A stretch of DNA of 64,000 bases from the NCBI GenBank assembly GCA_947474435.1, contig CANJII010000017.1, positions 2,580 to 66,579 on the forward strand. Direction: 5' to 3'. Under the pieces are notes generated by a model. The model saw only the letters and a list, made by a program, of their open reading frames with translations, had not been told where the DNA came from and ran no database searches. The position numbers and the translations under genes are program-made. The first letter of the stretch is position 1; each line of letters begins with the position of its first letter. This DNA is from Chitinophagaceae bacterium (GTDB taxonomy: Bacteria > Bacteroidota > Bacteroidia > Chitinophagales > UBA10324). This document shows, in pieces, positions 10,625-52,800 of this stretch.

Positions 10625-10742
10625 GGACCGCAAAACAAGCTAAAAGTAGGCATAGAACTAAATGTTTTCTGCTTATAAAATGAAAGTTTGCATTACTGCT
10701 TTGGTCGGCTATTTTCGGGGCTTCCAAAATCAAAACTCCATA

Positions 10743-29144: not shown

Positions 29145-30512
29145 TTACGCAGTCTGTTTTAATACAAACTGAATCATATCAGGCAAATTCATTCCATTAA
29201 AATTTCCACTGCTCATCAGCAACAAAACTGAATTCACAAAAGTCTGCTGATGAAGAAAATTTTCAATCTCCTCTTTTTTATTCATCACTACTAAATCATC
29301 GTGACCAAATAATTTTTTCACTTCGTCATTGCTGATTGCTTCTAATCTTTTGAGTTCAATGGTGTGCGGATTGAAGAAAACAACTTTCACATCAGCGCCA
29401 TCCATGCAGTTTTTATATTCAGCTATGAATTCTTTATTTAAGCTGCTGTAGGTATGCAACTCCATACAGGCAATAATTTTTCTTCCGGCAAATTGTTCTT
29501 TCACTGCCGAAATTGTTGCTTTCAGTTTAGAAGGAGAGTGGGCGAAATCTTTAAAGATGGTCACCTGATTATTACTTGCAATTTTCTCCAAGCGATTAGC
29601 AGCTCCGTTAAAAGTTTTAATGGCAGAAAAGAATTCTGTTTCTGTTACACCCAACTGTTTGCATACTTCAAATGCACCAGCCATGTTCGATAAATTGTGT
29701 TTACCAAAGACCTGCAACGAAGTTTTAATGCCATTGTGTAAAAAATAAGTAGTTCCATTCTCAATAACATATTTCGGAGTGCGGTAAGGAGTTTTTTCAG
29801 AAGTAGCTGAAGTTTTATCAGCCACTTTTTTCACTTCAGCATCTTCAATATTGTAAATAATTTTTCCATCAGCCGGAACCATATCCAGAAAAAGTTGAAA
29901 CTGCTCGAAGTAATTTTCAAAAGTCGGGAACACATTAATATGGTCCCAGGCAATACCGCTGATAAATGCAATATTCGGTTTGTACAATAAAAATTTCGGG
30001 GTTTTGTTCAATGCTGAGTCCGGATATTCATCGCCTTCTAAAATGATAACAGGAGCGGAGGCAGTCAGTTTTACCATCAGTTCAAATCCTTCAAGTTTCG
30101 AACCCACCATGTAATCAAAATCTTTTCCGGTTGCTTTCAACACATGCATAATCATGGAAGTGATAGTTGTTTTCCCATGACTGCCACCAATTACTACTCT
30201 TAATTTATTCTTGCTCTGTTCGTAGATGTATTCAGGAAAGGAATAAATTTTTAATCCCAATTCTTTTGCTTTTGCCAATTCAGAATTGTCAGCATATGCA
30301 TGCATTCCTAAAATCACAGCATCCAATTCTTTATTAATTTTCTCCGGAAACCACCCGAATTTCTCAGGAATGATACCGGCATTTTTTAATCGCGTATAAG
30401 CCGGATCAATGATTTCATCATCGGAACCTGAAATTTTATGTCCTTGTGTGTGAAGTGCCAATGCTAAATTGTGCATTACTGCTCCTCCTATTGCAATAAA
30501 ATGTATGTACAT
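29145..30512 (-). CDS. mpl: Mur ligase family protein, UDP-N-acetylmuramate:L-Ala-D-Glu-mDAP ligase-like
   Basis: N-terminal MYIHFIAIGGAVMHNLALAL..GHKISGSD, P-loop-like GSHGKTTITSM, 455 aa. Confidence 0.78.
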   Translation of the reverse strand: MYIHFIAIGGAVMHNLALALHTQGHKISGSDDEIIDPAYTRLKNAGIIPEKFGWFPEKINKELDAVILGMHAYADNSELAKAKELGLKIYSFPEYIYEQSKNKLRVVIGGSHGKTTITSMIMHVLKATGKDFDYMVGSKLEGFELMVKLTASAPVIILEGDEYPDSALNKTPKFLLYKPNIAFISGIAWDHINVFPTFENYFEQFQLFLDMVPADGKIIYNIEDAEVKKVADKTSATSEKTPYRTPKYVIENGTTYFLHNGIKTSLQVFGKHNLSNMAGAFEVCKQLGVTETEFFSAIKTFNGAANRLEKIASNNQVTIFKDFAHSPSKLKATISAVKEQFAGRKIIACMELHTYSSLNKEFIAEYKNCMDGADVKVVFFNPHTIELKRLEAISNDEVKKLFGHDDLVVMNKKEEIENFLHQQTFVNSVLLLMSSGNFNGMNLPDMIQFVLKQTA

Positions 30513-30576
30513 TCGTTGAACCTTTAAAGAAATTTAATCGTAATAGACTTAGAATTATTTAAAAACACCAATTTTC

Positions 30577-30726
30577 ATGAAGCATCAAATCTTAAAAGTT
30601 AAAACTGTAATCATGTTAGTAGTTTTAACAATGGGAGTGTTGGCATTATCATCTTGTGGCCGTCGCAGTGGTTGCCCCGGATTGATTTCCAAAACACATC
30701 CTGTAGAACAAACAGTTCGTTCGTAA
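30577..30726 (+). CDS. 49-aa putative lipoprotein (below the ORF-track cutoff)
   Basis: My own translation: MKHQILKVKTVIMLVVLTMGVLALSSCGRRSGCPGLISKTHPVEQTVRS*. ATG start, hydrophobic core, lipobox-like LSSC, and a hairpin 35 nt downstream. Confidence 0.45.
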   Translation: MKHQILKVKTVIMLVVLTMGVLALSSCGRRSGCPGLISKTHPVEQTVRS

Positions 30727-30760
30727 CAGTAAGAAACAGTTTTTCAATACTAAACATAAT

Positions 30761-30793
30761 GAAGTCTCGGTTTGTAAATCAAATCGGGACTTC
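30761..30793 (+). terminator. possible weak terminator hairpin after the small lipoprotein ORF
   Basis: GAAGTCTCG-15 nt-CGGGACTTC (9 bp, one G-U), then TTCATTT, a poor U-tract. Confidence 0.3.
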
Positions 30794-30838
30794 TTCATTT
30801 AATTTTACTACACATTTATTTCAGATAAAAATTTACAA

Positions 30839-31402
30839 ATGCAATTTGATTTCAGAGCCATCGCAACCATCACAATGGTTTTGTTTGCAGTAATTGATGT
30901 GATTGGGTCGCTTCCCATCATTGTTGATTTAAGGAGCAAGGTCGGCGAGATTCATCCATTGCGCATTACCATTGTTTCGGGGTCAATCATGATTGTTTTT
31001 TTATTCCTAGGAAATTCGATTTTGGATTTAATTGGAATTGACATTGAATCATTCGCTATTGCAGGTTCATTTATACTTTTCATTCTTGCTTTCGAAATGA
31101 TTTTAGGATGGAAATTCAGTAAAGATGAATCGCCAAAAACTGCTTCGATTGTTCCAATTGCTTTTCCGTTAATTGCAGGAGCAGGAACACTAACAACTTT
31201 ACTTTCTCTCCGTGCTGAATACAAACATGTTGAAAATATTATTGTTGCTATTCTTATTAATCTGTTTTTTGTTTATGTGGTTCTTCGTAATGTTTATCGA
31301 TTGGAGAAAATCCTGGGACCAAGTGGGATTTCAATTTTAAGAAAAGTATTCGGTGTTATTTTATTGGCGCTCGCAGTTAAATTATTTAAGACGAATACCT
31401 GA
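30839..31402 (+). CDS. MarC family (UPF0056) integral membrane protein
   Basis: Six hydrophobic segments, N-terminal FAVIDVIGSLPIIVDL motif, ~187 aa. Confidence 0.75.
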   Translation: MQFDFRAIATITMVLFAVIDVIGSLPIIVDLRSKVGEIHPLRITIVSGSIMIVFLFLGNSILDLIGIDIESFAIAGSFILFILAFEMILGWKFSKDESPKTASIVPIAFPLIAGAGTLTTLLSLRAEYKHVENIIVAILINLFFVYVVLRNVYRLEKILGPSGISILRKVFGVILLALAVKLFKTNT

Positions 31403-31566
31403 TTTTTAGTTAAGCAAGCAAGGGTTTTGCCTTTAAAAAAATAAAGGAACTTTTGAAATATTGAATCGTATGACTTCTGCGATTCAGAATCTTAAACACC
31501 TTGCGCATGAGAAGAATTCGACTCCTCTTTCTAATAAAAACAAGACAATCACTCCGCCAAAGAACA

Positions 31567-33159
31567 ATGCGGGCGTTAATGGTTGGAACTTTCTGCCTTG
31601 CATTAATTGCAGGAATGGTCGTTTTTGTTTTTCAATTTTCCCGCTCACCGAACACCATTGCTTCCGGTAACGATGTAACTTTCAGATCTTATCAGGGATT
31701 AACTTTTCAAAAATTAGTCAGAACTCAGGATGGAAACATGGTGGTGTCTGATGGGAAAAATTTTATAAAATCTGATTCAGCCGGAAATATTATTTGGGCG
31801 AGAGGAATAGCACAAACAACTAATTTAATTATTTCAGGACTTTGCGAAACTTCAAATGGTGATATCGTTGCTGCTTGTCAGTCAACCGATACAACAGGAG
31901 GTGTGGCGCAAATTGCATTGATAAGAATGTCGGCTGATGGTTCGTTGGAATGGTTTAAGTTTTTGCATAAACAAGGTTCTGATTTTATTTATGGGTTAGC
32001 TGCTGACAATGACAACGGAGTAATATTAACAGGTGGTGGTTGCTCAACCAATCATTTAATATTGAAGGCCGATGCACAAGGAAATTTGTTGTGGATGAAA
32101 GATTATTCACTCAATGGTTCAACCGGTTCAGCCAATAAAATTATTGTGAATACTGATGGAAGCATGTTTGTTTCAGGGAGATTGAATGATGGAAGTTCAA
32201 ATTGTATTTCGTTATTCATGACTGACGCAAGCGGGAATATTCAGTGGGGAAAAAAATTCTCAGACCAACAACAACCGGTGATTAAAACATTTATAAAAAC
32301 ATCAGATAATAGTTTGATTATAGGAGGTACTTACATTGGAGGTGCTACTGCATCCAATAACCCGTTTTTATTAAAAACAGATTTGAACGGAAATCTTTTA
32401 TGGTTTAAAAGATATGGCACCAATGGAATTGAATCTATCAATGACATGGCGCCAACCAGTGATGGTGGTGCAATAGTTACCGGAAATATTTATCTGAATC
32501 AGGATGAAAATGTTAATGCATTGTTGTTTAGGGTTGATGCGAATGGTACATTGGTTTGGCAAAAGTCAACTGGCAATAATGAATTCAATGGTGCCGGTTA
32601 TGATGATGCATACGATATCTGCCACCTAACAGAACACACTTATGCAGTAACCGGAATGGCTTACTGGGCTTACCTCTGCACGATAGATGAAAACGGAAAT
32701 GGATTTTGTCATGAATCACCGGTGTCGTTAACTGTATCCACTGTTTCATCACAAACAATAAATACATCCTATACTTCTATGGTTTCAAATATGTTTGATG
32801 TTACAAATGGAATCGCAGCTTCATCCAATGTTTTTATCGGCACACCTCACACTTGTTCTTCGGTAAATGCAACAGGAATTGGTGATCAACCGGAAACGAA
32901 TTCTGGAAATTCTGAAATCAGTTTATTTCCAAATCCAAGCGATGGAAATTTCAACATCAATTATTTTTTTCCATATGAAGGAAGTGGCTGGCTGGAGTTA
33001 TATGATTTGGGCGGAAAGAAAATTTCGGCAATAGAGCTGCCTTCTTACAACCGTTCAGTTTCATTGCATTATTCTGATTTGCCTAGTGGTGTTTATCTGT
33101 ACCAGGTAATTGCTGGAGGGAAAATATTTAAGCGAGAAAAATTTGTGATTTCAAAATAA
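31567..33159 (+). CDS. secreted beta-propeller-like repeat protein with a T9SS type-A C-terminal domain
   Basis: About 7 repeats of ~45-50 aa of the form T.DG..IV.G......L.K.D..GN.LW.K.Y. C-terminal LFPNPSDGNFNINYFF...GVYLYQVIAGGKIFKREKFVISK. Start chosen at the ATG at 31567 (MRALMVGTFCLALIAGMVVFVF); an ATG at 31507 is also possible. Confidence 0.75.
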   Translation: MRALMVGTFCLALIAGMVVFVFQFSRSPNTIASGNDVTFRSYQGLTFQKLVRTQDGNMVVSDGKNFIKSDSAGNIIWARGIAQTTNLIISGLCETSNGDIVAACQSTDTTGGVAQIALIRMSADGSLEWFKFLHKQGSDFIYGLAADNDNGVILTGGGCSTNHLILKADAQGNLLWMKDYSLNGSTGSANKIIVNTDGSMFVSGRLNDGSSNCISLFMTDASGNIQWGKKFSDQQQPVIKTFIKTSDNSLIIGGTYIGGATASNNPFLLKTDLNGNLLWFKRYGTNGIESINDMAPTSDGGAIVTGNIYLNQDENVNALLFRVDANGTLVWQKSTGNNEFNGAGYDDAYDICHLTEHTYAVTGMAYWAYLCTIDENGNGFCHESPVSLTVSTVSSQTINTSYTSMVSNMFDVTNGIAASSNVFIGTPHTCSSVNATGIGDQPETNSGNSEISLFPNPSDGNFNINYFFPYEGSGWLELYDLGGKKISAIELPSYNRSVSLHYSDLPSGVYLYQVIAGGKIFKREKFVISK

Positions 33160-33181
33160 ATTTAATCTAACCTGAATAATC

Positions 33182-33216
33182 AAAGTCATTTTCAGAAATG
33201 AAAGTGACTTTTTTTA
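33182..33216 (+). terminator. rho-independent terminator
   Basis: AAAGTCATTTTCA-gaaa-TGAAAGTGACTTT (13 bp, one G-U) running into TTTTTTT. Confidence 0.75.
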
Positions 33217-33235
33217 TTTTTATAATTATCTGAAA

Positions 33236-33694
33236 TTATTTTCCTGACTGATAACCTGTATCAATTTGTAATTCATATCCGTCAGCTGCCTCAGTTGCCA
33301 ATACATCGCATCGTTCGTTTTCAGGATGCTCATTGTGACCTTTTATCCAATGAAATTTTACTTTGTGTTTTGCATAGATAGTTAAAAACCGTTTCCATAA
33401 ATCAGGGTTTTTCTTTCCGGCAAATCCTTTTTTAACCCAACCGAAAACCCATTTTTTTTCAATTGATTCAACCACATATTTTGAATCTGAATAAATATCA
33501 ATAACACAATCAGCATTTTTTATTGCTTCCAATCCAATTATCACAGCCATTAATTCCATTCTGTTATTAGTTGTTAAACGGAAACCTTGCGATAATTCTT
33601 TTCGATGATTACCTGAAATCATAATGACTCCGTAACCACCTGGCCCCGGATTGCCTCTGGAAGAACCATCGGTAAAAATTTTTATGTGATGCAT
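33236..33694 (-). CDS. rnhA: ribonuclease HI
   Basis: IFTDGSSRGNPGPGGYGVI, NNRMELMAVI, SDSKYV and HNEHPENERCDVLA are the classic RNase H catalytic DEDD context. Confidence 0.9.
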   Translation of the reverse strand: MHHIKIFTDGSSRGNPGPGGYGVIMISGNHRKELSQGFRLTTNNRMELMAVIIGLEAIKNADCVIDIYSDSKYVVESIEKKWVFGWVKKGFAGKKNPDLWKRFLTIYAKHKVKFHWIKGHNEHPENERCDVLATEAADGYELQIDTGYQSGK

Positions 33695-33793
33695 TTAGCT
33701 GTTTAAAAAAGTAAATATGAAAAATATTAAAGCAATCAACTGAATAAATAAATTATTCTGCAATTTGCATTCGCAAATTTTTAAATTCAAACG

Positions 33794-34573
33794 ATGCACA
33801 TTTCACTGCAAACTAAAAGCACTAAAGTTTTCATGGTGCTCAGTTCATTCTTTGTTGCCAACGCTTTGATTGCCGAATGCATCGGAGTAAAAATATTTTC
33901 TCTTGAAAAAACTTTGGGGCTGAATCAACTCAATGCTTCAATTTTTGGCGAACATGGAATTTCATTCAATCTTACTTGCGGAGTTTTATTGTGGCCCCTG
34001 GAATTTATTATGACAGATATTATCAATGAATATTTCGGCCCGAAAGGAGTGAGGAGGGTTTCCTATATCGCTGTCAGTTTAATTTTGTATGCATTCATTA
34101 TGTTTTATTTCGCCATGCAGCTTTCGCCTGCTGATTTCTGGACCGGTGTTAATGCAGGTAAAGGTGTTCCGGATATGACTGCTGCCTTCAATTCAATATT
34201 CGGACAAGGGATGTGGATTATTTTCGGTTCGCTTACTGCATTTTTAGTTAGTCAGGTGGTTGATGTAACTGTTTTTCATTGGGTAAAAAGAAAAACAGGA
34301 GAAAAGAAAATGTGGCTTCGTGCAACAGGCAGCACTTTAGTTTCACAACTTGTTGATAGCTTTATTGTACTCTTCATTGCGTTTTATGTCGGGCAGGGTT
34401 GGAGCATGAGTTTAGTGTTAGCAATTTGTTTATTCAATTACACTTACAAGTTTTTTGCTGCTATTGTGTTAACTCCGGTTATGTACCTCGTTCATAATTT
34501 TATTGATAATTACCTGGGTGCTGAGTTGGCAAATGAAATGAAACTTGCCGCAATGAAACGAACGAATGAGTAA
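33794..34573 (+). CDS. queuosine-precursor transporter family protein (YhhQ / DUF165-like)
   Basis: Multi-TM protein with TDIINEYFG, VSQVVDVTVFHWVK, WLRATGSTLVSQLVDSFIVLFIAFY. It aligns by eye with E. coli YhhQ. Confidence 0.75.
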   Translation: MHISLQTKSTKVFMVLSSFFVANALIAECIGVKIFSLEKTLGLNQLNASIFGEHGISFNLTCGVLLWPLEFIMTDIINEYFGPKGVRRVSYIAVSLILYAFIMFYFAMQLSPADFWTGVNAGKGVPDMTAAFNSIFGQGMWIIFGSLTAFLVSQVVDVTVFHWVKRKTGEKKMWLRATGSTLVSQLVDSFIVLFIAFYVGQGWSMSLVLAICLFNYTYKFFAAIVLTPVMYLVHNFIDNYLGAELANEMKLAAMKRTNE

Positions 34574-34629
34574 TTGATTTGTGAATATCTATTCATCTTT
34601 ATTTTTTGAATGCTGATAATTGTCAAGAG

Positions 34630-34815
34630 TTTGCCGATTACATTCGCACCCGTTGTGGTTTCCTGAATGAAGTAAGGAATGAAAAAGGGAATGAGGTGAA
34701 ATGCCTCAACAGTCTCCGCTGCTGTAAGTCTTGAAATTGCAAATCAATAATGCCACTGAATAAAACCGGGAAGGCGGTTTGCAAAACAGATGAGTCAGAA
34801 GACCTGCCAAAACAA
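34630..34815 (+). promoter_or_regulatory. cobalamin (B12) riboswitch
   Basis: Ordered conserved blocks: GGTTTCC, AAAAAGGGAA, GGTGAAATGCC, CAGTCTCCGCTGCTGTAAG, GCCACTG, CCGGGAAGGC, and the B12 box GAGTCAGAAGACCTGCC (34792-34808, matching rAGYCMGgAgaCCkGCc). It lies in the 5' leader of the 34961 gene. The outer boundaries are approximate. Confidence 0.85.
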
Positions 34816-34960
34816 AATTGAATGTTGGTTTTAACACCCGCAAAAAAGCTTTCGGAAGAAAAGCTGCTCAAAAGTCAGTGGAAATTTATTTCTCTGATGA
34901 CTGTTGCAACTATTTTTCCAACAACAGAAAAAAATAAATAAAACATAAATCAATACAAAT

Positions 34961-36256
34961 ATGAAAAAAAACTTAGTACTTGCAACCATCCTTTTTTGCA
35001 GTGTTATTGCCAATGCTCAGCAAACACTTAATCAGGTTATCGTTTTAAACGAAGGCCGGTATGATTACATTCTTCAACAAATAGATAAACCTGTGACCGT
35101 CGGAGCTTATAATCCGCAAACAAATGTGTATTCGGTTTTTGATACAATTGACAATGCCCGCTTTGCATCGGATGTAGTGGTTGATGATGCAAATATTTAT
35201 GTGTCGGCAGATAATACTTTGCTCAAGTATGATTTGAATACACATCAATTGCTTTCAACTCAAACGGTAAATGGCATTCGTAAACTGGCTTTGTGGAACG
35301 ATAAAATTTTATTGACTCGTGGAGAATATTTAACTACCTACGATTCTTACTTTCAGGTTTATAATAAATCTGATTTGAGTTTTGTTTATCAGTTAGATAC
35401 TTTGAATGGACCACATTATGCATCGGATGGAATTGTGATAAAAAATAACATTGCCTACATAGCCATTAACAATGGTTTCGTATGGGGTGGCGCTGTTGGA
35501 ATTGTTGGCCGGGTTGATTTAACTAACCAGAATTACATGCCTGAAATTTCTTTAGGAGCTGATGGAATAAATCCTGAAAATATTTTGAACGACAACAACA
35601 AAGTTTACACAGTGAACAACCGTGATTATTCTTTTGCGTCAATAAGCAGCATTGACCTTTCAAATTCAAATGTGGTGACTACTAATCTGAATAATGCAGG
35701 AGGTTGTCAGGGTTCTGCTTTTATCAATTCAAAAATTGCTTACCAGACTTATAACGAAAATTTTATTGGGCGATTTGATGTGAATGCACAAAGCATTAGC
35801 GATTCTCTTTTTATCAATCGTTCCATTTATGCTATGGCAACTGATGAGCTGAATCAAAATTTATATGCTTCCGAAACAGATTTCAGTTCGTATGGGTTGG
35901 TGTTGATTTATAATGAGAATGGAAATTTATTGAATGCATTTGTTGCCGGAGTTACTCCCGGAAAATTTGCCTTTGATTATCGCAATGCAAGTGGAATTAG
36001 CAATGCAACAATTAATTCACAAGTATTGGTTTTTCCAAATCCATCAACAGATCAATTAACCATTGCCTGTACAAATGCTGATGAAAAATCCACTATCACA
36101 ATTACTTCTATAGATGGAAAAATTCTTTACCAAAATAATGTGAGTGGAAAAAACTTTGTTCATCACATTGATATTTCAAAATATGCAGCAGGAACTTACC
36201 TGCTTTCTCTTCAATCGGAAAATAAAACTTCAGTACAGAAGGTTGTTAAATATTAA
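34961..36256 (+). CDS. secreted YncE/DUF5074-like beta-propeller protein with a T9SS type-A C-terminal domain, B12-riboswitch controlled
   Basis: Signal peptide MKKNLVLATILFCSVIANAQ. N-terminal VIVLNEGRYDY motif and strand-rich repeats. C-terminal VLVFPNPSTDQLTIACTN...AGTYLLSLQSENKTSVQKVVKY. Confidence 0.8.
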   Translation: MKKNLVLATILFCSVIANAQQTLNQVIVLNEGRYDYILQQIDKPVTVGAYNPQTNVYSVFDTIDNARFASDVVVDDANIYVSADNTLLKYDLNTHQLLSTQTVNGIRKLALWNDKILLTRGEYLTTYDSYFQVYNKSDLSFVYQLDTLNGPHYASDGIVIKNNIAYIAINNGFVWGGAVGIVGRVDLTNQNYMPEISLGADGINPENILNDNNKVYTVNNRDYSFASISSIDLSNSNVVTTNLNNAGGCQGSAFINSKIAYQTYNENFIGRFDVNAQSISDSLFINRSIYAMATDELNQNLYASETDFSSYGLVLIYNENGNLLNAFVAGVTPGKFAFDYRNASGISNATINSQVLVFPNPSTDQLTIACTNADEKSTITITSIDGKILYQNNVSGKNFVHHIDISKYAAGTYLLSLQSENKTSVQKVVKY

Positions 36257-36273
36257 TTGATACTACACTTATT

Positions 36274-36310
36274 AAAATGCCGCTTCAAAAATTTTGAAGC
36301 GGCATTTTTT
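36274..36310. terminator. bidirectional rho-independent terminator between convergent genes
   Basis: Perfect palindrome AAAATGCCGCTTCAAAA-a-TTTTGAAGCGGCATTTT with a T-run on both strands. Confidence 0.85.
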
Positions 36311-36336
36311 ATTTTATAAAATCTATTTAAAGAGAA

Positions 36337-37242
36337 TTAAATTTTTTCAAACACCAATCTATAGTGATCCATAATTTCCTGTTCAAAACAAACACGGTTC
36401 GGACTCACTCTGAAAACTGCAACCTGATGACGGAATTCTTTATTAAAAATATATTTCGGAACCAACGACATGTACAGAAAATATTTTTTCAGATTGAACT
36501 GACGGAATTTTTTTCTCCATTGTCCGATTGTTTCAATGTAATCCAATCGTCCACTGCTTTTTGAAATCAGTTTGAAATGCGGCTCTGCATTTCTGATCAC
36601 CATCTCAGGGCCATAAGGCAACCATGAATTCGGAAATTCTTTTTCCATCAAGGCACAGATGTAAGCAGTAGAATTTTTATCAGCATTGATATCAAACTCC
36701 GAATACGGAATCATGTTTTTACTGAAGGTCATTGTCTGCATATAATAACGACCACCAACAGGTAACAAGTCGTAAATTTTCTTGAAAAAATCTTTATAAA
36801 TTTCTTCCTGCTTTCCCGCTTTCCAGTCTTCCGCTGAAACAAAATGTTCCAATCCTCCGATGCAGGTAACCGCATCAAAAGTTCCGAAATCGTTTGGTGT
36901 AATGTATCTGCAATCTTTCACCATCACATTCAAACCATTTGCATTGCATGCATCCGCCTGACCTTGTGATAATGTTAAGCCAAGGCTTTTTGCACCACGG
37001 TCTTTAGTAATGTAATTAGAAAATGGTCCCCAGCCGCAAGCCATGTCAAGCACCTTGCTTCCATTGGAAATATTTAAACTGTCGGCAATGAATTTATGTT
37101 TTGCTTTTTGCGCTGCTTCCAGTGTCATGGAAAAATCGCCATCGTATTTTGCACCTGAGTAATCACCGGTTTCGCCCATGCTCAAGCGAAATATTTTATC
37201 AATGGTGGTATAGGTAAAATCTAAGTCTTTGTTGTCAGCCAT
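36337..37242 (-). CDS. SAM-dependent methyltransferase (cyclopropane-fatty-acyl-phospholipid synthase-like family)
   Basis: SAM motif I VLDMACGWGPF, then IGGLEHF. The ~300-aa CMAS-like layout includes a C-terminal FRVSPNRVCF...YRLVFEK region. Confidence 0.75.
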   Translation of the reverse strand: MADNKDLDFTYTTIDKIFRLSMGETGDYSGAKYDGDFSMTLEAAQKAKHKFIADSLNISNGSKVLDMACGWGPFSNYITKDRGAKSLGLTLSQGQADACNANGLNVMVKDCRYITPNDFGTFDAVTCIGGLEHFVSAEDWKAGKQEEIYKDFFKKIYDLLPVGGRYYMQTMTFSKNMIPYSEFDINADKNSTAYICALMEKEFPNSWLPYGPEMVIRNAEPHFKLISKSSGRLDYIETIGQWRKKFRQFNLKKYFLYMSLVPKYIFNKEFRHQVAVFRVSPNRVCFEQEIMDHYRLVFEKI

Positions 37243-37438
37243 TTTATTTTCGGGGGTTGGCGGCGAATGTAAAATTTAAAACCCGAAAATTGCATCAATG
37301 GAAAAAGATGGAAATATTGCAGCAACAATTATTCGTGCAAGTTTAAACAAATTACTCCCGATTGGGTTGGTTATATTTGTTGAGAGATGAAATTATGGAA
37401 CAACAACAAGAGCGAAAACTTTAAACTGACAAACTAAA

Positions 37439-37810
37439 ATGGAGAATACAGACTTGCTGAATTGCATTAAAATAATTGGCGACTTTCCAACCATCTATCG
37501 GACAGAGAATCAAACTCCACTTGGAGTTATGATGCAAAGCGGATATTCAAACCTATTTTCTTTGGTGACAATTGAAAACATTTCTGATTACCTAATACAA
37601 AAACCAAAACTTATTGAAGATTGGATTAACTATTCAGAAGATATTCGGCACAGTCCGGCTTGGGGTTTTGGTCAAGATGGAAATGGCTCATGGACAGTAG
37701 CATATTCAGATGATGGTAAGTTTATAGATAAGTACAACTACAATGATAAATTTGTTGCCTGTGCTAAAATGGTTAAGGTGACTTTTGAAGAAATTAGAAA
37801 ACACATTTAA
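37439..37810 (+). CDS. hypothetical protein
   Basis: 123-aa ATG ORF with no signal peptide and no recognised family. It sits next to a decayed ORF in a ~1-kb stretch with little coding capacity. Confidence 0.45.
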   Translation: MENTDLLNCIKIIGDFPTIYRTENQTPLGVMMQSGYSNLFSLVTIENISDYLIQKPKLIEDWINYSEDIRHSPAWGFGQDGNGSWTVAYSDDGKFIDKYNYNDKFVACAKMVKVTFEEIRKHI

Positions 37811-37823
37811 GTTCAGAGTAAAC

Positions 37824-38117
37824 ATGAATTTCAGAACTACTATTTTATTCTCATTATTCCTCTTATTATTTTCTTGTAAGAACTAATACAATGAGATGAT
37901 TAATTGGTCAAGTAGTATTCCCAAATGGACATGCATTGATACAGTTAAACAAATTCAACCTGACTTTATTGAGATTGACTGAAAAAATCCTATAAAGAGT
38001 GACAGTGAAGCAAGATACATCAACACGAAAATTAAAAACAGTAACGACCTATTACAAATGGAAAACTATTTATCTTTCGCGGACAATAAATATCAAGGAC
38101 GATTTGCTAACAAATGA
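37824..38117 (+). pseudogene. decayed small lipoprotein gene (one frame, two internal stops)
   Basis: ATG at 37824 gives MNFRTTILFSLFLLLFSCKN, then TAA (37884-37886). The same frame continues YNEMINWSSSIPKWTCIDTVKQIQPDFIEID, then TGA (37980-37982), then KNPIKSDSEARYINTKIKNSNDLLQMENYLSFADNKYQGRFANK, then TGA (38115-38117). Confidence 0.4.
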
Positions 38118-38278
38118 AACCACAAACAAACATGACTGCAAACATTGAACGACAAAATTTCGTGACGAGAGTAGCACGAACGCATAATAAGGATTAACTC
38201 AAACAAATTCTTTTACATTAACACCAATAATAAATGGGATTAGCGAAACTTGTTTTTTTTCTAAGATTGAAAAATAAA

Positions 38279-39637
38279 TTACCTATTAAATTCCAATCTC
38301 TTCCCGAAATTATTTTCATTGAAAAGTCCGTGATGATAAACCAGATGACCATTCACAAATGTGTGAGTGATTCTGCTTTTGAATTTAAAACCTTCCAATG
38401 GCGACCAACCACATTTATAATAAATATTATCAGAATGAACTTCCCATTCTTTTTCCGGATTCACTAAAACCAAATCAGCAAAATATCCTTCGCGAATAAA
38501 TCCTCTTTCTTTTACACCAAAACAAATGGCAGGGTTATGCGCGGCTTTCTCTGCAATGTCAATCAGTCGCAATTGTTTGTTGTGCCAGAACTCCAATAAC
38601 ATATTTAACGAATGCTGAACAAGCGGTAAACCACTCGGAGCTTTAAAATAATTTATACTTCCATCGGGAGTGCGTATCATTTTTTCCTGCATGGTGTGTG
38701 GCGCATGGTCTGTTGCAAGAACATCAATGAAACCATCTTTCAATGCCTGCAATAATTTTGGTTTATGCTCCGGGCCCTTGATGGCAGGATTACATTTTAT
38801 CAATGTACCAAGGGTTGCATAATCATTACTATCGAACCACAGGTGATGAACACAAACTTCAGCAGTAATTCTTTTTTCCGCTAATGGAGTTATGTTTTCC
38901 AGCAATGCAATTTCATCCAGAGTTGAAAGATGAAAAATGTGTAAACGGCTGTTGTGTTTTTTAGCTAATTCAACGGCATACTTCGATGAATCATAACAGG
39001 CTTTCTCATCGCGGATAATTGGATGAAAGCGCATTGGAATGGCATCGCCATAATGCATGCGAAGCGGAATGGTGTTTTCTTTTATTCGCAAATCATCTTC
39101 GCAATGTGTGGCAATCAGAGTAGGAGAGTGCTTGAAAATATTTTCCAATGAATTGGGATTATCAACCACTAAATCTCCGGTTGATGAACCCATGAATATT
39201 TTTATTCCACAAACTTTTGATGGGTCAGTTTTTTTTATTTCCTCTAAATTGGAATTGGAAGTTCCGAGATAAAAAGAATAATTTGCCAGTGAATGAGTAC
39301 TTGCAATTTCATATTTCTGCTCTAACAATTCATGAGTGGTTGCCGGAGGAATGGTGTTCGGCATTTCCATAAATGAAGTTACACCACCTGCCACTGCAGC
39401 TTTTGCTTCAGTATAAATGTTTGCTTTTTGTGTCATTCCCGGTTCACGGAAATGAACCTGGTCGTCAATCAATCCGGGAAATAAATAATTTCCTTCCGCA
39501 TCAATTTCACGATGTAATGATTTGATGGAAATGTTTTCATCGATCTTTTCAATTCGTTCGCCATTAATTAAAAGGTCCTGCGTTTTTATTTCTCCTTCAT
39601 TAACAATCTGCGCATTGCGGATAATGGTGTAGCTCAT
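38279..39637 (-). CDS. pyrC: dihydroorotase (cyclic amidohydrolase family)
   Basis: GLIDDQVHFREPG (HxH metal site), ATDHAPH, 452 aa. Class-I dihydroorotase/allantoinase-like; exact substrate not provable from sequence. Confidence 0.78.
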   Translation of the reverse strand: MSYTIIRNAQIVNEGEIKTQDLLINGERIEKIDENISIKSLHREIDAEGNYLFPGLIDDQVHFREPGMTQKANIYTEAKAAVAGGVTSFMEMPNTIPPATTHELLEQKYEIASTHSLANYSFYLGTSNSNLEEIKKTDPSKVCGIKIFMGSSTGDLVVDNPNSLENIFKHSPTLIATHCEDDLRIKENTIPLRMHYGDAIPMRFHPIIRDEKACYDSSKYAVELAKKHNSRLHIFHLSTLDEIALLENITPLAEKRITAEVCVHHLWFDSNDYATLGTLIKCNPAIKGPEHKPKLLQALKDGFIDVLATDHAPHTMQEKMIRTPDGSINYFKAPSGLPLVQHSLNMLLEFWHNKQLRLIDIAEKAAHNPAICFGVKERGFIREGYFADLVLVNPEKEWEVHSDNIYYKCGWSPLEGFKFKSRITHTFVNGHLVYHHGLFNENNFGKRLEFNR

Positions 39638-39640
39638 AAT

Positions 39641-40627
39641 TTAGGTAGCAAGAATTTCCTGAATTCGTAAAAGATTTAAATTGATATCAAGGTTGTGCTT
39701 GGTGGCTTTTTCAAATGGGGTGAATTCAATTTCACGATGTATTACACCAACCATTTCATTTTCTTTCCCTTCAATTAATGCTTCAACTGCAGCAACACCT
39801 AATCTGCTGGCGAGCACTCTGTCCATGCAGGTTGGATTTCCACCACGCTGCATGTGACCGAGAATGGAAACGCGTGTGTCATAATAATCAAAATGTTCTT
39901 TTACCTGCTTTGCAATATCATATGCACCTCCTGATTCATCGCCTTCAGCAACCACCACAATGCAACTCGATTTATTTCTGTTCCAACCTTTTTCCAGAAT
40001 TGAAATCAGGTGCGGAATATCCGTTTTCGTTTCAGGAACCAGAATGGCTTCAGCGCCTCCGCCGATTCCGCTTCGCAATGCAATAAATCCGGCATCTCGT
40101 CCCATCACTTCAATAAAAAATAATCGGTTGTGCGAATCTGCCGTGTCGCGGATTTTATCAATTGCCTCCATGGCAGTATTGATTGCAGTATCGTATCCAA
40201 TGGTAAAATCGGTTCCGAATAAATCATTGTCAATGGTGCAGGGAACTCCGATGCTTGAAATGTTATGTCGCATACTGAATTCGAAACAACCACGAAATGT
40301 TCCATCACCACCGAGCGCCACCAATCCTTCAATATTGTGCTTCTTTAAATTTTCAGCTGCGAGATTCATTCCTTCTTCGGTTAGAAATCTTTTGCTGCGC
40401 GCAGTTTTTAAAATGGTTCCGCCACGCTGAATAATGTTGCTGACTGATTGCGAATTCATCTCAATCATATCGCCGTCAATCATTCCTTCAAATCCTCTTT
40501 TGATTCCGACTACCTCGAGGTTGTTAAAAATTGCTGTTCGTACCACAGCGCGAATGGCGGCATTCATACCCGGAGAATCGCCACCTGAAGTAAACACACC
40601 TATCCTCTTATTTTTTGTCATTCCCAT
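39641..40627 (-). CDS. pfkA: ATP-dependent 6-phosphofructokinase
   Basis: RIGVFTSGGDSPGMNAAIRAVV, GGDGTFRG, PCTIDNDL, MGRDAGFIAL, LGHMQRGG. The track start at 40642 is TTG; ATG options are 40627 and 40621. Confidence 0.9.
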   Translation of the reverse strand: MGMTKNKRIGVFTSGGDSPGMNAAIRAVVRTAIFNNLEVVGIKRGFEGMIDGDMIEMNSQSVSNIIQRGGTILKTARSKRFLTEEGMNLAAENLKKHNIEGLVALGGDGTFRGCFEFSMRHNISSIGVPCTIDNDLFGTDFTIGYDTAINTAMEAIDKIRDTADSHNRLFFIEVMGRDAGFIALRSGIGGGAEAILVPETKTDIPHLISILEKGWNRNKSSCIVVVAEGDESGGAYDIAKQVKEHFDYYDTRVSILGHMQRGGNPTCMDRVLASRLGVAAVEALIEGKENEMVGVIHREIEFTPFEKATKHNLDINLNLLRIQEILAT

Positions 40628-40703
40628 TTTTATTGGCGGCAAAGATTCAACTTCTGTTGTTAACTAAAAATGATTTTGATAACAATGATTTTAAAAAACA
40701 GAA

Positions 40704-49846: not shown

Positions 49847-52800
49847 TTATTGCTTTAGCATCTTTCGAACTTCTCTCAGGTTCTGACCTATGATTACCAG
49901 ACTGTATAATCCCTGCGGGAAATCCTGTAGTTGGATGAGCAATTCCGTTTGCCCTTTTTCCATCGATTCAATTTTCATTTCTCTTCCGGCCATATCATAA
50001 ATGCGGATGTCATAAGTTTCTTCACCCGGATTGGAGAGTTCCAGATGAATAATATCAGATGTAGGATTTGGAAAAAGACCAAAGTCTAAATTATTTTCAT
50101 TTTCCATAACTTCCATTCTCGCAGCCGCTGATGTTGTGAAATTATAAGAAGCAGAAAATGCAGAAAGATTAGTTCCGGCTGCATCACATTGTGTTTGAAT
50201 TTGAATTTCATATTGTGTAGTTGGCATTAATCCGCTAACGGTTGCAGCTGTATTATTTCCATTGGTTGATTGCAAAGTCCAAAGCGTTGAACCAACGGGT
50301 CTGGTTCTTAAATTATATTTGTAAGCACCTGTCACACTTCCCCACATGGCAATTGTACTTGTTGAATTTGTATTCATAAAACTTGCTGTAGAAGTTACAT
50401 TGCAGTTTGAACTTGTATTCGTAAGAATTACACTTTGTGTTTTAATGCAGCCACCTGAAGAAGTTACCGTAATCGTAAATGTTCCAGCTGCAACAGTAGT
50501 AAGGTCTTCAGTTGTAGCACCATTACTCCACAGATAAGTATATGGAGTTTGTCCGCCACTTACTGTAATATTTATTGCTCCGTTTGATTGCCCGCTTGTT
50601 GGATTGGTAGAAGTATATGTTATAGAAGGCAATGCATTTACAGTAATTATTTTGGTAGAAGTTTTTGCACAACCATTCGCAGCTGTACCTGTAATTGAAT
50701 AAGTGATAGCAGAAACCGGATTTGCAACTACACTTGAACCTGAAGTTAAATTTAATCCGGTTGATGGTGACCATGAGTATGTTGATGCACCGCTTGCTGT
50801 TAAATTCGTACTTGTTCCGGAACATGTTGTTGAATTACCACTTACTGAAATTGTTGGAGATGCATTTACAAAAAGCGCGACGGTTTTTGATGCGTTGCAT
50901 GCTCCTGAAGTTCCGGATATTGTGTAAGTGATATTTGAAATTGGAGTGGAAGAAACTGTTGCACCCATTGTTGTATTCAATGATGTGGATGGCGACCAAG
51001 TATAAGTTGAAGCACCAGTAACTGTTAGTGAGGTTGAACTGCCTGAACATATTGAAGATGCACCGCTCACACTTAAAACCAAACCCGATGAAACGGTAAC
51101 TGCAATAGTTTTTGTATTAGTGCAACCATTCGATGTTCCAATTACAGTGTATGTAGTTGATGAAACAGGATTTGCATTTACACTTGAACCGGTAGTAATA
51201 TTTAATCCGGTTGATGGTGACCATGAATATGTAGTTGCTCCACTTCCGGTTAATGTTGTTGAAGAACCAGTACACATTGCAATATTGCCAGATGTTGAAA
51301 CAATTGGCGATGCGTTAACGGTTATAGTTTTGGCAAAAGATTTTGTGCATCCGTTCGCAGCCGTTCCTGTAATTGAATAAGTGATAGTAGAAATTGGAGT
51401 AGCTGAAACCATAGTTCCTGTTGTAACCGAAAGACCTGTTGATGGTGACCATGTGTATGTGATTGCTCCGCTCGCAGTTAAATTAACACTGCTTCCTGAA
51501 CAGGTAGAATTATTTCCGCTTACAGAAACTGTTGGTAAAGCATTCACAGAAACCGAAACTGTTTTGGTTGAAGTGCATCCATTGCTCCCTGTAATTGTGT
51601 AAGTGATGTTGGATGTTGGATTTGCCATAACACTTGAACCAGTTGTAACATTTAAAGCTGTTGAGGGTGACCATGTGTAAGTAGTTGCACCACCTGCTGT
51701 TAGTGTGGTTGATGTGCCTGAACAAATGGTTGTATTGACTGATGATGTAATTGTTGGAATTGAATTGACAGCCAAAGTAAAATTTTGAATTTTAGTACAA
51801 CCATTTGCAGTTCCTGAAATTGCATAAGTGAGTGATGAAGTTGGATTAGCTATAACTGTTGTGCCTGAAGTTAAATTTAAACCTGTTGCAGGCGACCATG
51901 AATAAGTTGTTGCTCCGTTTACAGTTAATGTTGTTGATGAGCCATTGCAAATTGCATTGCTTCCTGAAATAGTTAATGTTGGTAATGTTATTACAATAAC
52001 GCTTTTTGTAGAAGAACTACTACAGCCATTTGTAGTTCCTGTTATGGTGTAAGTAATACTTGAAGTTGGCGAAGCCGTTGCACTTACTGCAGTGGTTGAA
52101 TTCAAAGCTGTTGAAGGCGACCATGAATAGGTTGTTGCTCCGCTTGCAGTAATTGTGGTTGAAGTTCCTGAACAAATACTTGTACTCGTTGGAGAAACTG
52201 TAACTACAGGCAATGCTTTCACCTGAATGGTTTGCGAAGCTGATTGAGAATTATAAGTATAGTTAATTGTAAAAGTTCCAGCTCCTGCAATTGCCGGATT
52301 AAATATTCCGGCACTCACACCTGTTCCTGAATAAGTTCCTCCGGTAGGCGAACCGCCTGTCAATGTAAATGAAGATGCATTCACACAAACAGGATTGAAA
52401 GTTGAAAGTGTAACTGTTGTGGTTCCGCTTTTATATATAGTCCATGAAACAGAATTAGTTGGAACTAATTTTTTTACCAATGAAGTTGTGTCCCAAACAT
52501 TGAAAGTAAGCGTGTGAATTCCTGTAATTAAATTATTTCCGATAGAAGTGTAGGATAGAATATTTGTACCGACAACAACTCCATCTAATAGCCATTGTGA
52601 TTTTATTGTGTTTGGAATTGTTTGAATAATGGTTGAAGAAAAGTTTTGTGAACCTCCGCTCGCAATATTTATTGTTGAAGTATTTACCGGTGAATAACTA
52701 TTCACCAGATTAGTCATGTTCAGAAATGACACAATCAATTCTTCCTTACAAATACTGCAGAAAGATTGACCAAGAGCTAACATTTTACAATTACACATCG

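What the first reader, a model, noticed from the sequence alone, without database searches (positions are those of the whole stretch)
34630..36310. Cobalamin riboswitch controlling a monocistronic T9SS-exported beta-propeller: candidate extracellular corrinoid-capture protein
Seen in the sequence: the plus strand at 34630-34815 carries the hallmark cobalamin-riboswitch blocks in canonical order. These are GGTTTCC, AAAAAGGGAA, GGTGAAATGCC, CAGTCTCCGCTGCTGTAAG, GCCACTG, CCGGGAAGGC, and the B12 box GAGTCAGAAGACCTGCC at 34792-34808. About 150 nt downstream starts a 431-aa ORF. It has a signal peptide (MKKNLVLATILFCSVIANAQ), an N-terminal VLNEG motif, strand-rich repeats that I associate with YncE/DUF5074-type propellers, and a type-A T9SS sorting domain. 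A perfect palindromic terminator (36274-36310) closes the unit. No TonB-dependent receptor, btuFCD or B12-dependent/independent isozyme gene is adjacent. Established knowledge: in Bacteroidota these riboswitches mostly gate btuB loci that include surface-exposed B12-binding lipoproteins, and BtuG is a beta-propeller. Inference: here the B12-responsive product is a T9SS cargo uncoupled from any transporter gene. That suggests a secreted or surface-attached corrinoid scavenger delivered by a different export route than the described lipoprotein systems.
Basis: partly seen in the sequence, partly recalled or inferred. Interest (0 to 1): 0.75.

Follow-up and report, generated by a model that had tools for sequence, protein, structure and literature searches.

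The report
B12-switched, T9SS-exported BtuG-like propeller
A vitamin-B12-sensing RNA switch controls a single gene for an exported protein shaped like BtuG, the B12-capturing protein of gut Bacteroides, but sent out by the type IX secretion system instead of a lipid anchor; this looks like an undescribed B12-scavenging variant common in freshwater Bacteroidota.

Summary
Window 34639-34825 (+) is a full-length cobalamin riboswitch (RF00174, 102 bits). It precedes a 431-aa ORF (34961-36256) with a Sec signal peptide, a seven-bladed beta-propeller and a type-A T9SS sorting domain. A 16-bp terminator closes the unit, and no btuB was found among the window ORFs scanned.

The AlphaFold model (pLDDT 89) matches B12-bound BtuG structures best (Foldseek E 7e-17, TM 0.82), and profile comparison gives distant homology (hhalign 83%). 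Several BtuG2 ligand contacts are kept, and the propeller is acidic like BtuG2.

It is not a canonical BtuG: no DUF5074 match, no lipobox, no adjacent btuB. It belongs to a family of about 960 clusters at 50% identity. 82 of 103 representatives carry the T9SS domain. 68 of 75 informative genomic loci have the riboswitch directly upstream.

Some relatives add btuF/btuC-like or DUF6580 genes downstream. Two divergent relatives sit right after a true btuB, one beside a canonical lipoprotein BtuG.

Best reading: a B12-repressed, T9SS-delivered corrinoid binder. Binding, final location and receptor are untested. I found no paper linking BtuG-like proteins to T9SS. It is a new variant of a known kind.

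The parts
34639..34825 (+). Cobalamin riboswitch aptamer (RF00174), full length, with the B12 box at 34792-34808
   Evidence: 102 bits, E 2e-24, model positions 1-189 of 189. Homologous aptamers lie upstream of relatives.
34826..34960 (+). Leader or expression platform. It holds two conserved hairpins (about 34850-34925), then an A-rich stretch before the ATG. There is no U-tract terminator.
   Evidence: RNAalifold on 6 Chitinophagaceae-clade leaders gives 23 pairs, 7 of them with compensatory changes; no terminator-like hairpin, and 68% A in positions -25 to -1; the single-sequence fold is not exceptional (z = -0.9).
34961..35020 (+). Sec signal peptide (residues 1-20, MKKNLVLATILFCSVIANAQ). 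Cleavage by signal peptidase I is predicted before a Gln.
   Evidence: Read from the sequence. 35 of 38 family N-termini have [AGS]-Q near the predicted cleavage site, and none matches a lipobox pattern.
35021..35989 (+). Seven-bladed BtuG-like beta-propeller (residues about 21-343). It is acidic (pI 4.4, net charge -14).
   Evidence: AF2 pLDDT 89, pTM 0.84; top Foldseek hits are BtuG-cobalamin structures (E 7e-17, TM 0.82); sequence and profile homology to BtuG; charge.
35990..36019 (+). Flexible linker (residues about 344-353)
   Evidence: mean pLDDT is 59 for residues 341-350.
36020..36256 (+). Type A T9SS C-terminal sorting domain (residues about 354-431) and stop codon
   Evidence: PF18962 54.5 bits and TIGR04183 45.6 bits; matches to solved T9SS CTDs (8glk_D, 8glj_D).
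36274..36308 (+). Intrinsic terminator: 16-bp perfect stem, 3-nt loop, T-run. It is shared with the convergent gene at 36337-37242.
   Evidence: with sequence.

Best explanation
This is a single-gene, B12-repressed unit encoding an exported corrinoid-binding protein. When intracellular adenosylcobalamin is low, the riboswitch leaves the gene on. The product crosses the inner membrane by Sec, with signal peptidase I cleaving before Gln21. Its type-A C-terminal domain is then recognised by the type IX secretion system, which carries it across the outer membrane. The domain is removed, and the propeller is either attached to the cell surface or released. The acidic, seven-bladed BtuG-like propeller binds cobalamin or other corrinoids in its central pocket and hands them to a BtuB-type TonB-dependent transporter encoded elsewhere. 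When B12 is replete, the aptamer binds the coenzyme and expression is shut off. Shown here: the riboswitch, the fold, the T9SS domain, the absence of a lipobox, and the family-wide linkage to the riboswitch and, in relatives, to btu genes. Inferred: ligand binding, the OFF logic, the final location and the receiving transporter.
For: Riboswitch: RF00174 at 102 bits. A homologous aptamer lies directly upstream of the gene in 68 of 75 informative loci across Chitinophagales, Crocinitomicaceae/Flavobacteriales and unclassified Bacteroidota MAGs.

Fold: the AF2 model has pLDDT 89. The best PDB matches are BtuG3-CNCbl (8okv, E 7e-17, TM 0.82, rmsd 2.8), BtuG2-AdoCbl (8bmz), BtuG2-CNCbl (8bai) and 3dsm.

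Sequence homology: a propeller profile hits BtuG chains at E about 3e-5 over nearly the full length. hhalign gives 82.6% probability, E 1e-5, over 277 columns.

Ligand site: BtuG2 contacts are named in PMC10404256 and bioRxiv 10.1101/2024.02.16.580637. They map onto conserved family positions: the clamp loop NEGNFQY to NEGRYDY (Glu55 to E31, Phe58 to Y34), Trp194 to F173 (aromatic in 101 of 103 representatives), Tyr239 to Y223, Tyr316 to Y290 and Tyr335 to F308. The propeller has pI 4.4 and net charge -14, against pI 4.6 and -16 for BtuG2.

Export: the T9SS CTD scores above the curated cut-offs. 82 of 103 family representatives carry it. Three other CTD proteins in the window imply that the organism has a T9SS.

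Linkage to B12 transport in relatives: Peripla_BP_2 plus FecCD genes (btuF/btuC-like) lie downstream in 5 loci and DUF6580 in 4 loci. In L088 and L087 the order is riboswitch, then a BtuB homologue (E 9e-59 to B. thetaiotaomicron BtuB2), then a T9SS-CTD propeller that matches this family at 99% hhalign probability.
Against: No binding, expression or localisation data exist. Sequence identity to BtuG is only about 16-23%, and the hhalign probability is 83%, not 99%. Gln93 and Gln219 of BtuG2 align with Ser70 and Asp201, and Trp272 has no clear counterpart. No partner transporter was found among the window ORFs scanned, and I could not search the rest of the genome. The leader has no recognisable terminator or sequestering helix, so the switching mechanism is not seen. 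Seven relatives lack the riboswitch, including an 80%-identical orthologue with a decayed one, so B12 control is not obligatory. In L088 a canonical lipoprotein BtuG co-occurs in the same operon, so the T9SS propeller need not do the same job as BtuG.
Confidence: 0.55

Rival explanations
1. It does the canonical BtuG job with a different anchor. The propeller is fixed to the cell surface through its processed C-terminus, as T9SS type-A cargo is linked to anionic LPS in Porphyromonas. There it caps a distally encoded BtuB as a lid and is not a free scavenger.
For: The top structural matches are BtuG lids. In L087 a T9SS-CTD propeller sits immediately after btuB with overlapping stop and start codons, and no DUF5074 gene was seen in the 11-kb locus. 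That is the position BtuG normally occupies.
Against: In BtuG the N-terminal lipid and linker form the hinge on BtuB (PMC10404256). Here the anchor would be C-terminal, behind a flexible linker. btuB is not adjacent in the window or in any of the 80 subfamily-A loci. In L088 a true lipoprotein BtuG is present as well, which argues for an accessory role.
Confidence: 0.2
2. It is a freely secreted 'corrinophore'. The propeller is released into the water, binds corrinoids at a distance, and is recaptured by an outer-membrane receptor, like a hemophore.
For: Many type-A CTD proteins of Flavobacterium are released in soluble form (reviewed in PMC10202324, listed; background knowledge). The gene is stand-alone. 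A TonB-dependent receptor of non-BtuB type ends just before the riboswitch in 7 Flavobacteriales loci, and a homologue lies about 1.7 kb upstream of it in L040. Purified BtuG2 added in trans can function extracellularly (PMC6143338).
Against: A diffusible high-affinity binder is a costly public good for dilute planktonic freshwater cells. In Bacteroides, BtuG2 works mainly in cis. The neighbouring receptors are not under the riboswitch and resemble heme or generic receptors.
Confidence: 0.15
3. The propeller binds or acts on something other than corrinoids, for example another tetrapyrrole, a metal, or a polymer as an enzyme or adhesin. It would be B12-regulated for an indirect reason.
For: The propeller has no Pfam family. 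Beta-propellers are functionally diverse. Two polar BtuG2 contacts are not conserved. An invariant lone cysteine (C249) has no counterpart in BtuG.
Against: The riboswitch linkage holds across distant lineages (68 of 75 loci). Operon partners in relatives are btuB, btuF/btuC-like genes and a canonical BtuG. The clamp loop and the aromatic pocket residues are retained. Non-BtuG propellers score far worse in Foldseek.
Confidence: 0.1

Closest known systems
BtuG (BT1954/BtuG2, BT2095/BtuG3, BT1490/BtuG1) of Bacteroides thetaiotaomicron; Pfam DUF5074; PDB 3DSM, 8BMY/8BMZ, 8BAI, 8OKV
   Same: Both are seven-bladed acidic beta-propellers (TM 0.77-0.82, rmsd about 2.7-3.4 A). They share the N-terminal NEGxFxY clamp loop and the C-terminal Y-G...TDY...G...F-VG-PG motifs. 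Both have aromatic pocket residues, are restricted to Bacteroidota and are under cobalamin-riboswitch control.
   Different: This protein has no DUF5074 match. It has a signal peptidase I signal and no lipobox Cys or lipoprotein export signal. It carries a C-terminal T9SS sorting domain. It is not adjacent to btuB here. Gln93, Gln219 and Trp272 are not conserved. Its subfamily has an invariant single Cys. It comes from freshwater and environmental MAGs and not from gut Bacteroides.
Accessory surface B12 binders of Bacteroides (BtuH/DUF4465, BtuJ, BtuK, BtuL): the 'extracellular relay'
   Same: All are extra, riboswitch-controlled extracellular corrinoid binders that supplement the BtuB-BtuG core (PMC13616437, PMC8941943). 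In L088 the T9SS propeller co-occurs with BtuB and a canonical BtuG, as these accessories do.
   Different: The fold differs: this is a BtuG-like propeller and has no DUF4465 match. Those proteins are lipoproteins, whereas this one is T9SS cargo.
T9SS type-A cargo proteins (for example gingipains, F. johnsoniae ChiA; TIGR04183/PF18962 CTD)
   Same: The architecture is the same: Sec signal, functional domain, flexible linker, then a beta-sandwich CTD of about 75 aa that scores above the curated cut-offs.
   Different: In the literature I searched, no T9SS cargo is reported as a vitamin-binding protein or as riboswitch-regulated.
E. coli YncE (PDB 3VGZ)
   Same: It is also a seven-bladed propeller, and some PDB depositors label BtuG chains 'YncE family'.
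   Different: The structural match is much weaker (Foldseek rank 47, TM 0.65, rmsd 4.8). It has no B12 link.

Membership tests
Cobalamin riboswitch (Rfam RF00174) | Covariance-model score at or above the curated gathering score, over the full aptamer | tested here: met
   102 bits against 31.5, model positions 1-189 of 189, E 2e-24.
Cobalamin riboswitch (Rfam RF00174) | Ligand-dependent control of the downstream gene | not testable with these tools
   There is only indirect support. The aptamer is conserved upstream in 68 of 75 informative loci. The expression platform is not resolved.
BtuG (surface B12-binding lipoprotein of Bacteroidota) | Seven-bladed beta-propeller fold superimposable on BtuG2 | tested here: met
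   pLDDT 89. The 12 best PDB hits are BtuG1/2/3, with E down to 7e-17 and TM 0.77-0.82.
BtuG (surface B12-binding lipoprotein of Bacteroidota) | Sequence membership of Pfam DUF5074 (PF16819) | tested here: not met
   BtuG2 scores 69.7 bits, while the window propeller gives no hit at E <= 1. Only 1 of 103 family representatives gives a weak hit. Distant homology is seen only by profile methods.
BtuG (surface B12-binding lipoprotein of Bacteroidota) | Lipobox cysteine plus lipoprotein export signal (PMC6143338) | tested here: not met
   the signal is of SPI type and ends ...ANAQQ. No lipobox pattern is found in 38 family N-termini. For contrast, the canonical BtuG of L088 has LLMSC.
BtuG (surface B12-binding lipoprotein of Bacteroidota) | Gene adjacent to btuB in a riboswitch-controlled operon | tested here: not met
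   No TonB-dependent receptor was found among the window ORFs scanned. None is co-transcribed in the 80 subfamily-A loci. The feature is met only by the divergent subfamily-B relatives L087 and L088.
BtuG (surface B12-binding lipoprotein of Bacteroidota) | Conserved corrinoid-contact residues | tested here: inconclusive
   Kept: Glu55, Phe58, Trp194, Tyr239, Tyr316 and Tyr335 equivalents. Changed or unclear: Gln93 to Ser, Gln219 to Asp, and Trp272. The alignment has low confidence in blade 5.
BtuG (surface B12-binding lipoprotein of Bacteroidota) | High-affinity corrinoid binding | not testable with these tools
   This needs recombinant protein.
T9SS type-A cargo | C-terminal sorting domain matching TIGR04183/PF18962 above the curated cut-off | tested here: met
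   54.5 bits (cut-off 27) and 45.6 bits (cut-off 23), at residues 357-430, the extreme C-terminus. The model shows a beta-sandwich there.
T9SS type-A cargo | N-terminal Sec signal peptide | tested here: met
   Read from the sequence. There was no dedicated predictor. The pattern holds across the family.
T9SS type-A cargo | T9SS machinery present in the same genome, and export dependent on it | not testable with these tools
   Support is indirect: three more CTD proteins lie in the window. No por/gld/spr genes were identified in the window.

The most novel reading that the evidence does not exclude
Freshwater and other environmental Bacteroidota secrete, through the T9SS, a diffusible BtuG-like 'corrinophore' that is made only under B12 starvation. 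It would ligate the cobalt through the invariant lone cysteine (C249) of subfamily A, a binding chemistry unlike BtuG and reminiscent of BtuM. It would then be recaptured by a dedicated outer-membrane receptor. That would be a vitamin counterpart of hemophores and a new functional class of T9SS cargo.
Probability: 0.15. Interest if true: 0.85.

Novelty: new variant of a known kind. Interest (0 to 1): 0.63.

Why it matters
BtuG has been defined from gut Bacteroides as a lipid-anchored lid that is always encoded next to btuB. Reviews up to 2026 describe the extracellular B12 relay only in terms of lipoproteins.

This locus represents a sizeable sister family: about 960 clusters at 50% identity, mostly from lake and other environmental Bacteroidota. 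In it the same fold is exported by the type IX secretion system, and the gene usually stands alone behind its own riboswitch.

If the protein binds corrinoids, three things follow. B12 scavenging becomes a function of the T9SS. There would be a ready marker for B12 limitation in freshwater Bacteroidota, where B12 auxotrophy shapes communities. And a binder anchored at its C-terminus or released raises a mechanistic question: how is cargo handed to BtuB?

The same comparison flags DUF6580 as a candidate inner-membrane B12 transporter.

Tried and rejected
- **Pfam and NCBIfam on the ORF:** only the CTD is recognised. The weak OLF (olfactomedin) hit, at 20 bits, is below its cut-off and reflects generic propeller similarity.
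- **YncE/DUF5074 membership:** rejected on sequence. YncE is a poor structural match.
- **Neighbouring TonB-dependent receptors in relatives as the missing BtuB** (818/806 aa in the L027 and L066 groups, 785 aa in L040): the L027 receptor gives no B. thetaiotaomicron or E. coli BtuB hit in the PDB, and its NCBIfam profile is heme or generic. L040 reaches only 110 bits against the 600-bit TonB-B12 cut-off. None has its own riboswitch. I did not accept them as partners.
- **Downstream genes in Crocinitomicaceae loci** (phosphoribosyltransferase, SIS, arginase) and in marine loci (Na/H exchanger, GcvT): unrelated to B12, so these units also look monocistronic.
- **Expression platform:** the single-sequence fold is unremarkable (z = -0.9) and there is no terminator-like hairpin. 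A conserved, covarying two-hairpin spacer exists, but I could not derive ON and OFF alternatives.
- **Sigma-70 promoter scan:** at background level and not suited to Bacteroidota promoters. An alignment of the upstream regions showed no conserved promoter block.
- **DUF6580 against PDB sequences:** no hit. Foldseek gives only non-significant E-values, with TM about 0.6 to ECF S-components.
- **Scans for subfamily B:** two alignment-based genome scans failed for lack of a conserved stretch. A single-protein scan found only two propeller loci.
- **Not possible here:** searching the rest of this genome for btuB or other RF00174 copies, and inspecting model coordinates to place C249.
Full report
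**1. The observation**

Rfam cmscan of the whole 64-kb window returns a single family. It is the cobalamin riboswitch RF00174 at 34639-34825 on the + strand, at 102 bits against a gathering score of 31.5, E 2e-24, covering all 189 model positions.

The ORF starts 135 nt after the aptamer. It spans 34961-36256 and encodes 431 aa beginning MKKNLVLATILFCSVIANAQQTLNQVIVLNEG. Its last 75 residues or so match the T9SS sorting domain above the curated cut-offs: PF18962 at 54.5 bits and TIGR04183 at 45.6 bits.

A perfect 16-bp hairpin with a T-run lies at 36274-36308, and the next gene (36337-37242, a CMAS-like methyltransferase) is convergent. The unit is therefore monocistronic. The upstream gene (33794-34573) is a Vut_1/queuosine-precursor transporter.

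I scanned the ten ORFs at 29145-40642 and ten further large ORFs against Pfam. None is a TonB-dependent receptor, a btuFCD gene or an evident B12-dependent or B12-independent isozyme gene. Several ORFs of 250 aa or more were not scanned.

**2. What the protein is**

The N-terminal 340 residues have no Pfam or NCBIfam family. An AlphaFold2 model built on 40 homologues is confident (pLDDT 89, pTM 0.84). It shows a seven-bladed propeller (about residues 21-342), a flexible linker and a beta-sandwich CTD.

Foldseek against the PDB puts B12-binding BtuG lipoproteins of Bacteroides first. BT2095 with cyanocobalamin (8okv) scores E 7e-17, TM 0.82 on the target, rmsd 2.8 A. Next come 3dsm, BT1954 with adenosylcobalamin (8bmz) and BtuG2 with CNCbl (8bai). 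Unrelated propellers follow with much worse rmsd, and E. coli YncE ranks 47th.

Sequence methods agree, but only at the profile level. A propeller-only profile hits nine BtuG chains at E 3e-5 to 1e-4, several over nearly the full length. hhalign against the BtuG2 sequence gives 82.6% probability, E 1e-5, over 277 columns. BtuG2 itself is a Pfam DUF5074 protein (69.7 bits), while the window propeller gives no DUF5074 hit at E <= 1. It is therefore a distant relative of BtuG and not a member of the described family.

**3. The ligand site**

Published BtuG2 structures name the contacts: a clamp loop Asn54-Thr64, then Glu55, Phe58, Gln93, Trp194, Gln219, Tyr239, Trp272 (Ala in BtuG3), Tyr316 and Tyr335 (PMC10404256; bioRxiv 10.1101/2024.02.16.580637).

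In the HMMER and hhalign alignments these contacts map as follows.
- The clamp loop NEGNFQY aligns with NEGRYDY. E31 is invariant in the subfamily, and Y34 is F or Y in 88 of 103 representatives.
- Trp194 aligns with F173, which is aromatic in 101 of 103.
- Tyr239 aligns with Y223, Tyr316 with Y290 and Tyr335 with F308 (Y, F or W in 99 of 103).
- Gln93 aligns with Ser70, which is Gln in the sister subfamily. Gln219 aligns with Asp201. Trp272 has no confident counterpart.

The propeller is acidic (pI 4.4, net charge -14; family median -18), like BtuG2 (pI 4.6, -16). That fits the electrostatic capture described for BtuG2. These mappings rest on sequence alignments, because I had no access to model coordinates.

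**4. Not a lipoprotein but T9SS cargo**

BtuG was defined by a lipobox cysteine and a lipoprotein export signal (PMC6143338). Here the signal peptide ends ...ANA-QQ. 35 of 38 family members have [AGS]-Q near the predicted cleavage site, and none fits a lipobox pattern. An N-terminal Gln after signal peptidase I cleavage is typical of Bacteroidota exported proteins; that statement is background knowledge.

Three more CTD-bearing proteins lie in the window: an M4 peptidase at 10662-14411, an M64 peptidase at 49847-53572, and a propeller-like protein at 31501-33159. The organism evidently uses a T9SS.

**5. The family and its context**

The word-based search found 669 homologues. An exhaustive profile search of 1.84 billion cluster representatives found 959 at E <= 1e-3, 437 at E <= 1e-10 and 159 at E <= 1e-30. 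Most are 415-445 aa long. Of 103 near-full-length representatives, 82 carry the T9SS CTD.

Two subfamilies are visible. Subfamily A has the motifs NEG...RFAS...NNGFxWG...GC and includes the window protein. Subfamily B has NGG...SVQD and lacks the cysteine.

A genome scan returned 80 loci, all in Bacteroidota MAGs: Chitinophagales, Crocinitomicaceae and other Flavobacteriales, and Saprospiraceae. Many come from lake metagenomes.
- Rfam found RF00174 directly upstream in 9 of 11 distant loci, at 87-104 bits.
- An nhmmer profile found it in 68 of the 75 loci that hold enough upstream DNA.
- The seven exceptions were confirmed negative by Rfam. One is an 80%-identical syntenic orthologue whose riboswitch has decayed.

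In most loci the flanking genes are unrelated to B12 and differ between lineages, so the riboswitch plus propeller travels as a self-contained unit. Three kinds of linkage to B12 transport do appear.
- Five Chitinophagales loci continue downstream into Peripla_BP_2 and FecCD genes, which are btuF/btuC-like.
- Four loci continue into DUF6580, a 175-aa membrane protein that NCBI names a putative transporter. Its confident model (pLDDT 92) resembles ECF S-components with TM about 0.6, though the E-values are not significant.
- In two subfamily-B relatives the order is riboswitch, TonB-dependent transporter, T9SS-CTD propeller, with overlapping stop and start codons. The L088 transporter is a clear BtuB (E 9e-59 to B. 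thetaiotaomicron BtuB2, 8bmx_C). Its propeller matches the window family at 99% hhalign probability (E 7e-18). The same L088 operon also encodes a canonical DUF5074 BtuG with a lipobox (LLMSC) and the motif VLNEGNFQW.

The T9SS propellers are thus a paralogous branch that belongs to B12-uptake loci. They can coexist with BtuG.

**6. How it most likely works**

Shown: the riboswitch, a Sec signal without lipobox, a BtuG-like acidic propeller with a partly conserved ligand site, a T9SS CTD, and family-wide riboswitch and btu linkage.

Inferred:
- The switch turns expression off when B12 is replete, as for other uptake genes.
- The protein is carried across the outer membrane by the T9SS, and its CTD is removed.
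- It binds corrinoids outside the cell and passes them to a BtuB encoded elsewhere.

I put about 0.55 on this general mechanism without committing to surface versus released. The co-occurrence with a real BtuG in L088 favours an accessory scavenger, in the spirit of BtuH/BtuJ, over a lid.

The rivals are a C-terminally anchored BtuB lid (0.2), a fully released corrinophore (0.15) and a non-corrinoid function (0.1).

The switching mechanism is not resolved. The leader has no U-tract terminator and its single-sequence fold is unremarkable. Six related leaders share a two-hairpin spacer with compensatory changes, followed by an A-rich stretch. Crocinitomicaceae relatives instead show a covarying short hairpin with a U-rich tail.

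**7. Comparison with what is known, and novelty**

The papers I could search define BtuG as a surface lipoprotein encoded next to btuB (106 of 109 operons) and restricted to Bacteroidetes. A 2026 review of the B. thetaiotaomicron relay does not mention T9SS. Searches combining BtuG, B12 or cobalamin with T9SS or type IX secretion found no paper that connects them. DUF6580 appears in no paper.

The locus is therefore a new variant of a known kind. It has the BtuG fold and B12 regulon membership, but a different export and anchoring route, a different gene organisation and a divergent sequence family.

An unexplained feature is the invariant G248-C249 motif of subfamily A, usually the only cysteine of the mature propeller.

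**8. Limits**

- There are no experimental data.
- The rest of the genome could not be searched for btuB or other riboswitches.
- Residue mapping relies on low-identity alignments.
- The loci examined are nearly all MAGs.
- The signal peptide was judged by eye.

Noticed in passing
L020:7256-7783, L014:7308-7832, L017:7101-7679, L018:2713-3225: DUF6580 is a 175-aa helical membrane protein. It sits directly downstream of the T9SS propeller, which is riboswitch-controlled in three of these four loci (L018 has no riboswitch). Its AF2 model (pLDDT 92) best resembles ECF-transporter S-components (4huq_S, RibU, FolT, PanT; TM about 0.6, E not significant). It is a candidate solitary inner-membrane B12 transporter of the BtuM/CbrT kind. 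No paper mentions the family.
   Followed up: partly
L088:2856-9572 (also L087:2592-6533): This is a B12 operon of unusual content. In order it holds the riboswitch, BtuB, a T9SS-CTD propeller with a Big_9 domain, an FGE-sulfatase-like 494-aa protein, a 154-aa protein that is little more than a CTD, and a canonical lipoprotein BtuG (DUF5074).
   Followed up: partly
L009:5709-6000: An 80%-identical, fully syntenic orthologue has lost the riboswitch. Only degraded remnants such as GCCAGTG remain, and Rfam finds nothing. B12 control has therefore been lost in one close lineage.
   Followed up: partly
window 35705-35707 (Cys249 of the ORF): The G248-C249 motif is invariant in subfamily A, and C249 is usually the only cysteine of the mature propeller. 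It lies in a beta-turn of the blade that aligns, with low confidence, to the BtuG2 Trp272 loop. It might be a cobalt ligand. I could not test this without model coordinates.
   Followed up: partly
P0074, P0098; L055:1032-2198, L059:5529-6695, L079:5953-7125: A 388-aa class from marine Flavobacteriales gives no Pfam CTD hit. It ends in a stub of about 40 aa (...FDLFGRKI...GIYIRPGKKIFRQ) that resembles only the last strands of a T9SS CTD. It still has the riboswitch about 60 nt upstream.
   Followed up: no
window 31501-33159 (+): A second T9SS-CTD protein of 552 aa, with weak SBBP/propeller-like hits, lies two genes upstream. It is syntenic in close relatives and has no riboswitch. Its function is unknown.
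   Followed up: no
window 10662-14411 (+) and 49847-53572 (-): Two large T9SS cargo peptidases are present. One is M4 thermolysin-like with PKD, CUB and Ig_7 domains. The other is M64 IgA-peptidase-like with Ig_7. A 2259-aa ORF at 2050-8829 was not examined.
   Followed up: no
L043-L052, L069, L075 (about 30 nt after the aptamer); also L021, L022, L027, L039: In Crocinitomicaceae and other Flavobacteriales leaders, a 5-7 bp hairpin varies by compensatory changes (GGAUG...CAUCC, GGGUG...UACCC, GUGUAC...GUACAC) and is followed by UAGCUUUUC or CUUGUCCUU. It is probably an attenuator-like element of the expression platform and is absent from the window's clade.
   Followed up: partly
L022, L025, L027, L039, L047, L066, L067 (for example L027:3248-5704); L040:1692-4049: A TonB-dependent receptor of 806-818 aa, with a CarboxypepD_reg N-terminal domain, ends a few nucleotides before the riboswitch in two Flavobacteriales groups. 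A 34%-identical homologue lies about 1.7 kb upstream of it in a Chitinophagales locus. It is not BtuB-like by PDB or NCBIfam and has no riboswitch of its own. Whether it partners the propeller is unknown.
   Followed up: partly
L029:1688-1756, L048:4654-4721, L062:4033-4098; L015:12106-12188: S15-Flavobacteria ribosomal leader (RF03161) and Flavo-1 sRNA (RF01705) hits occur in flanking DNA of related loci. They are unrelated to the finding.
   Followed up: no
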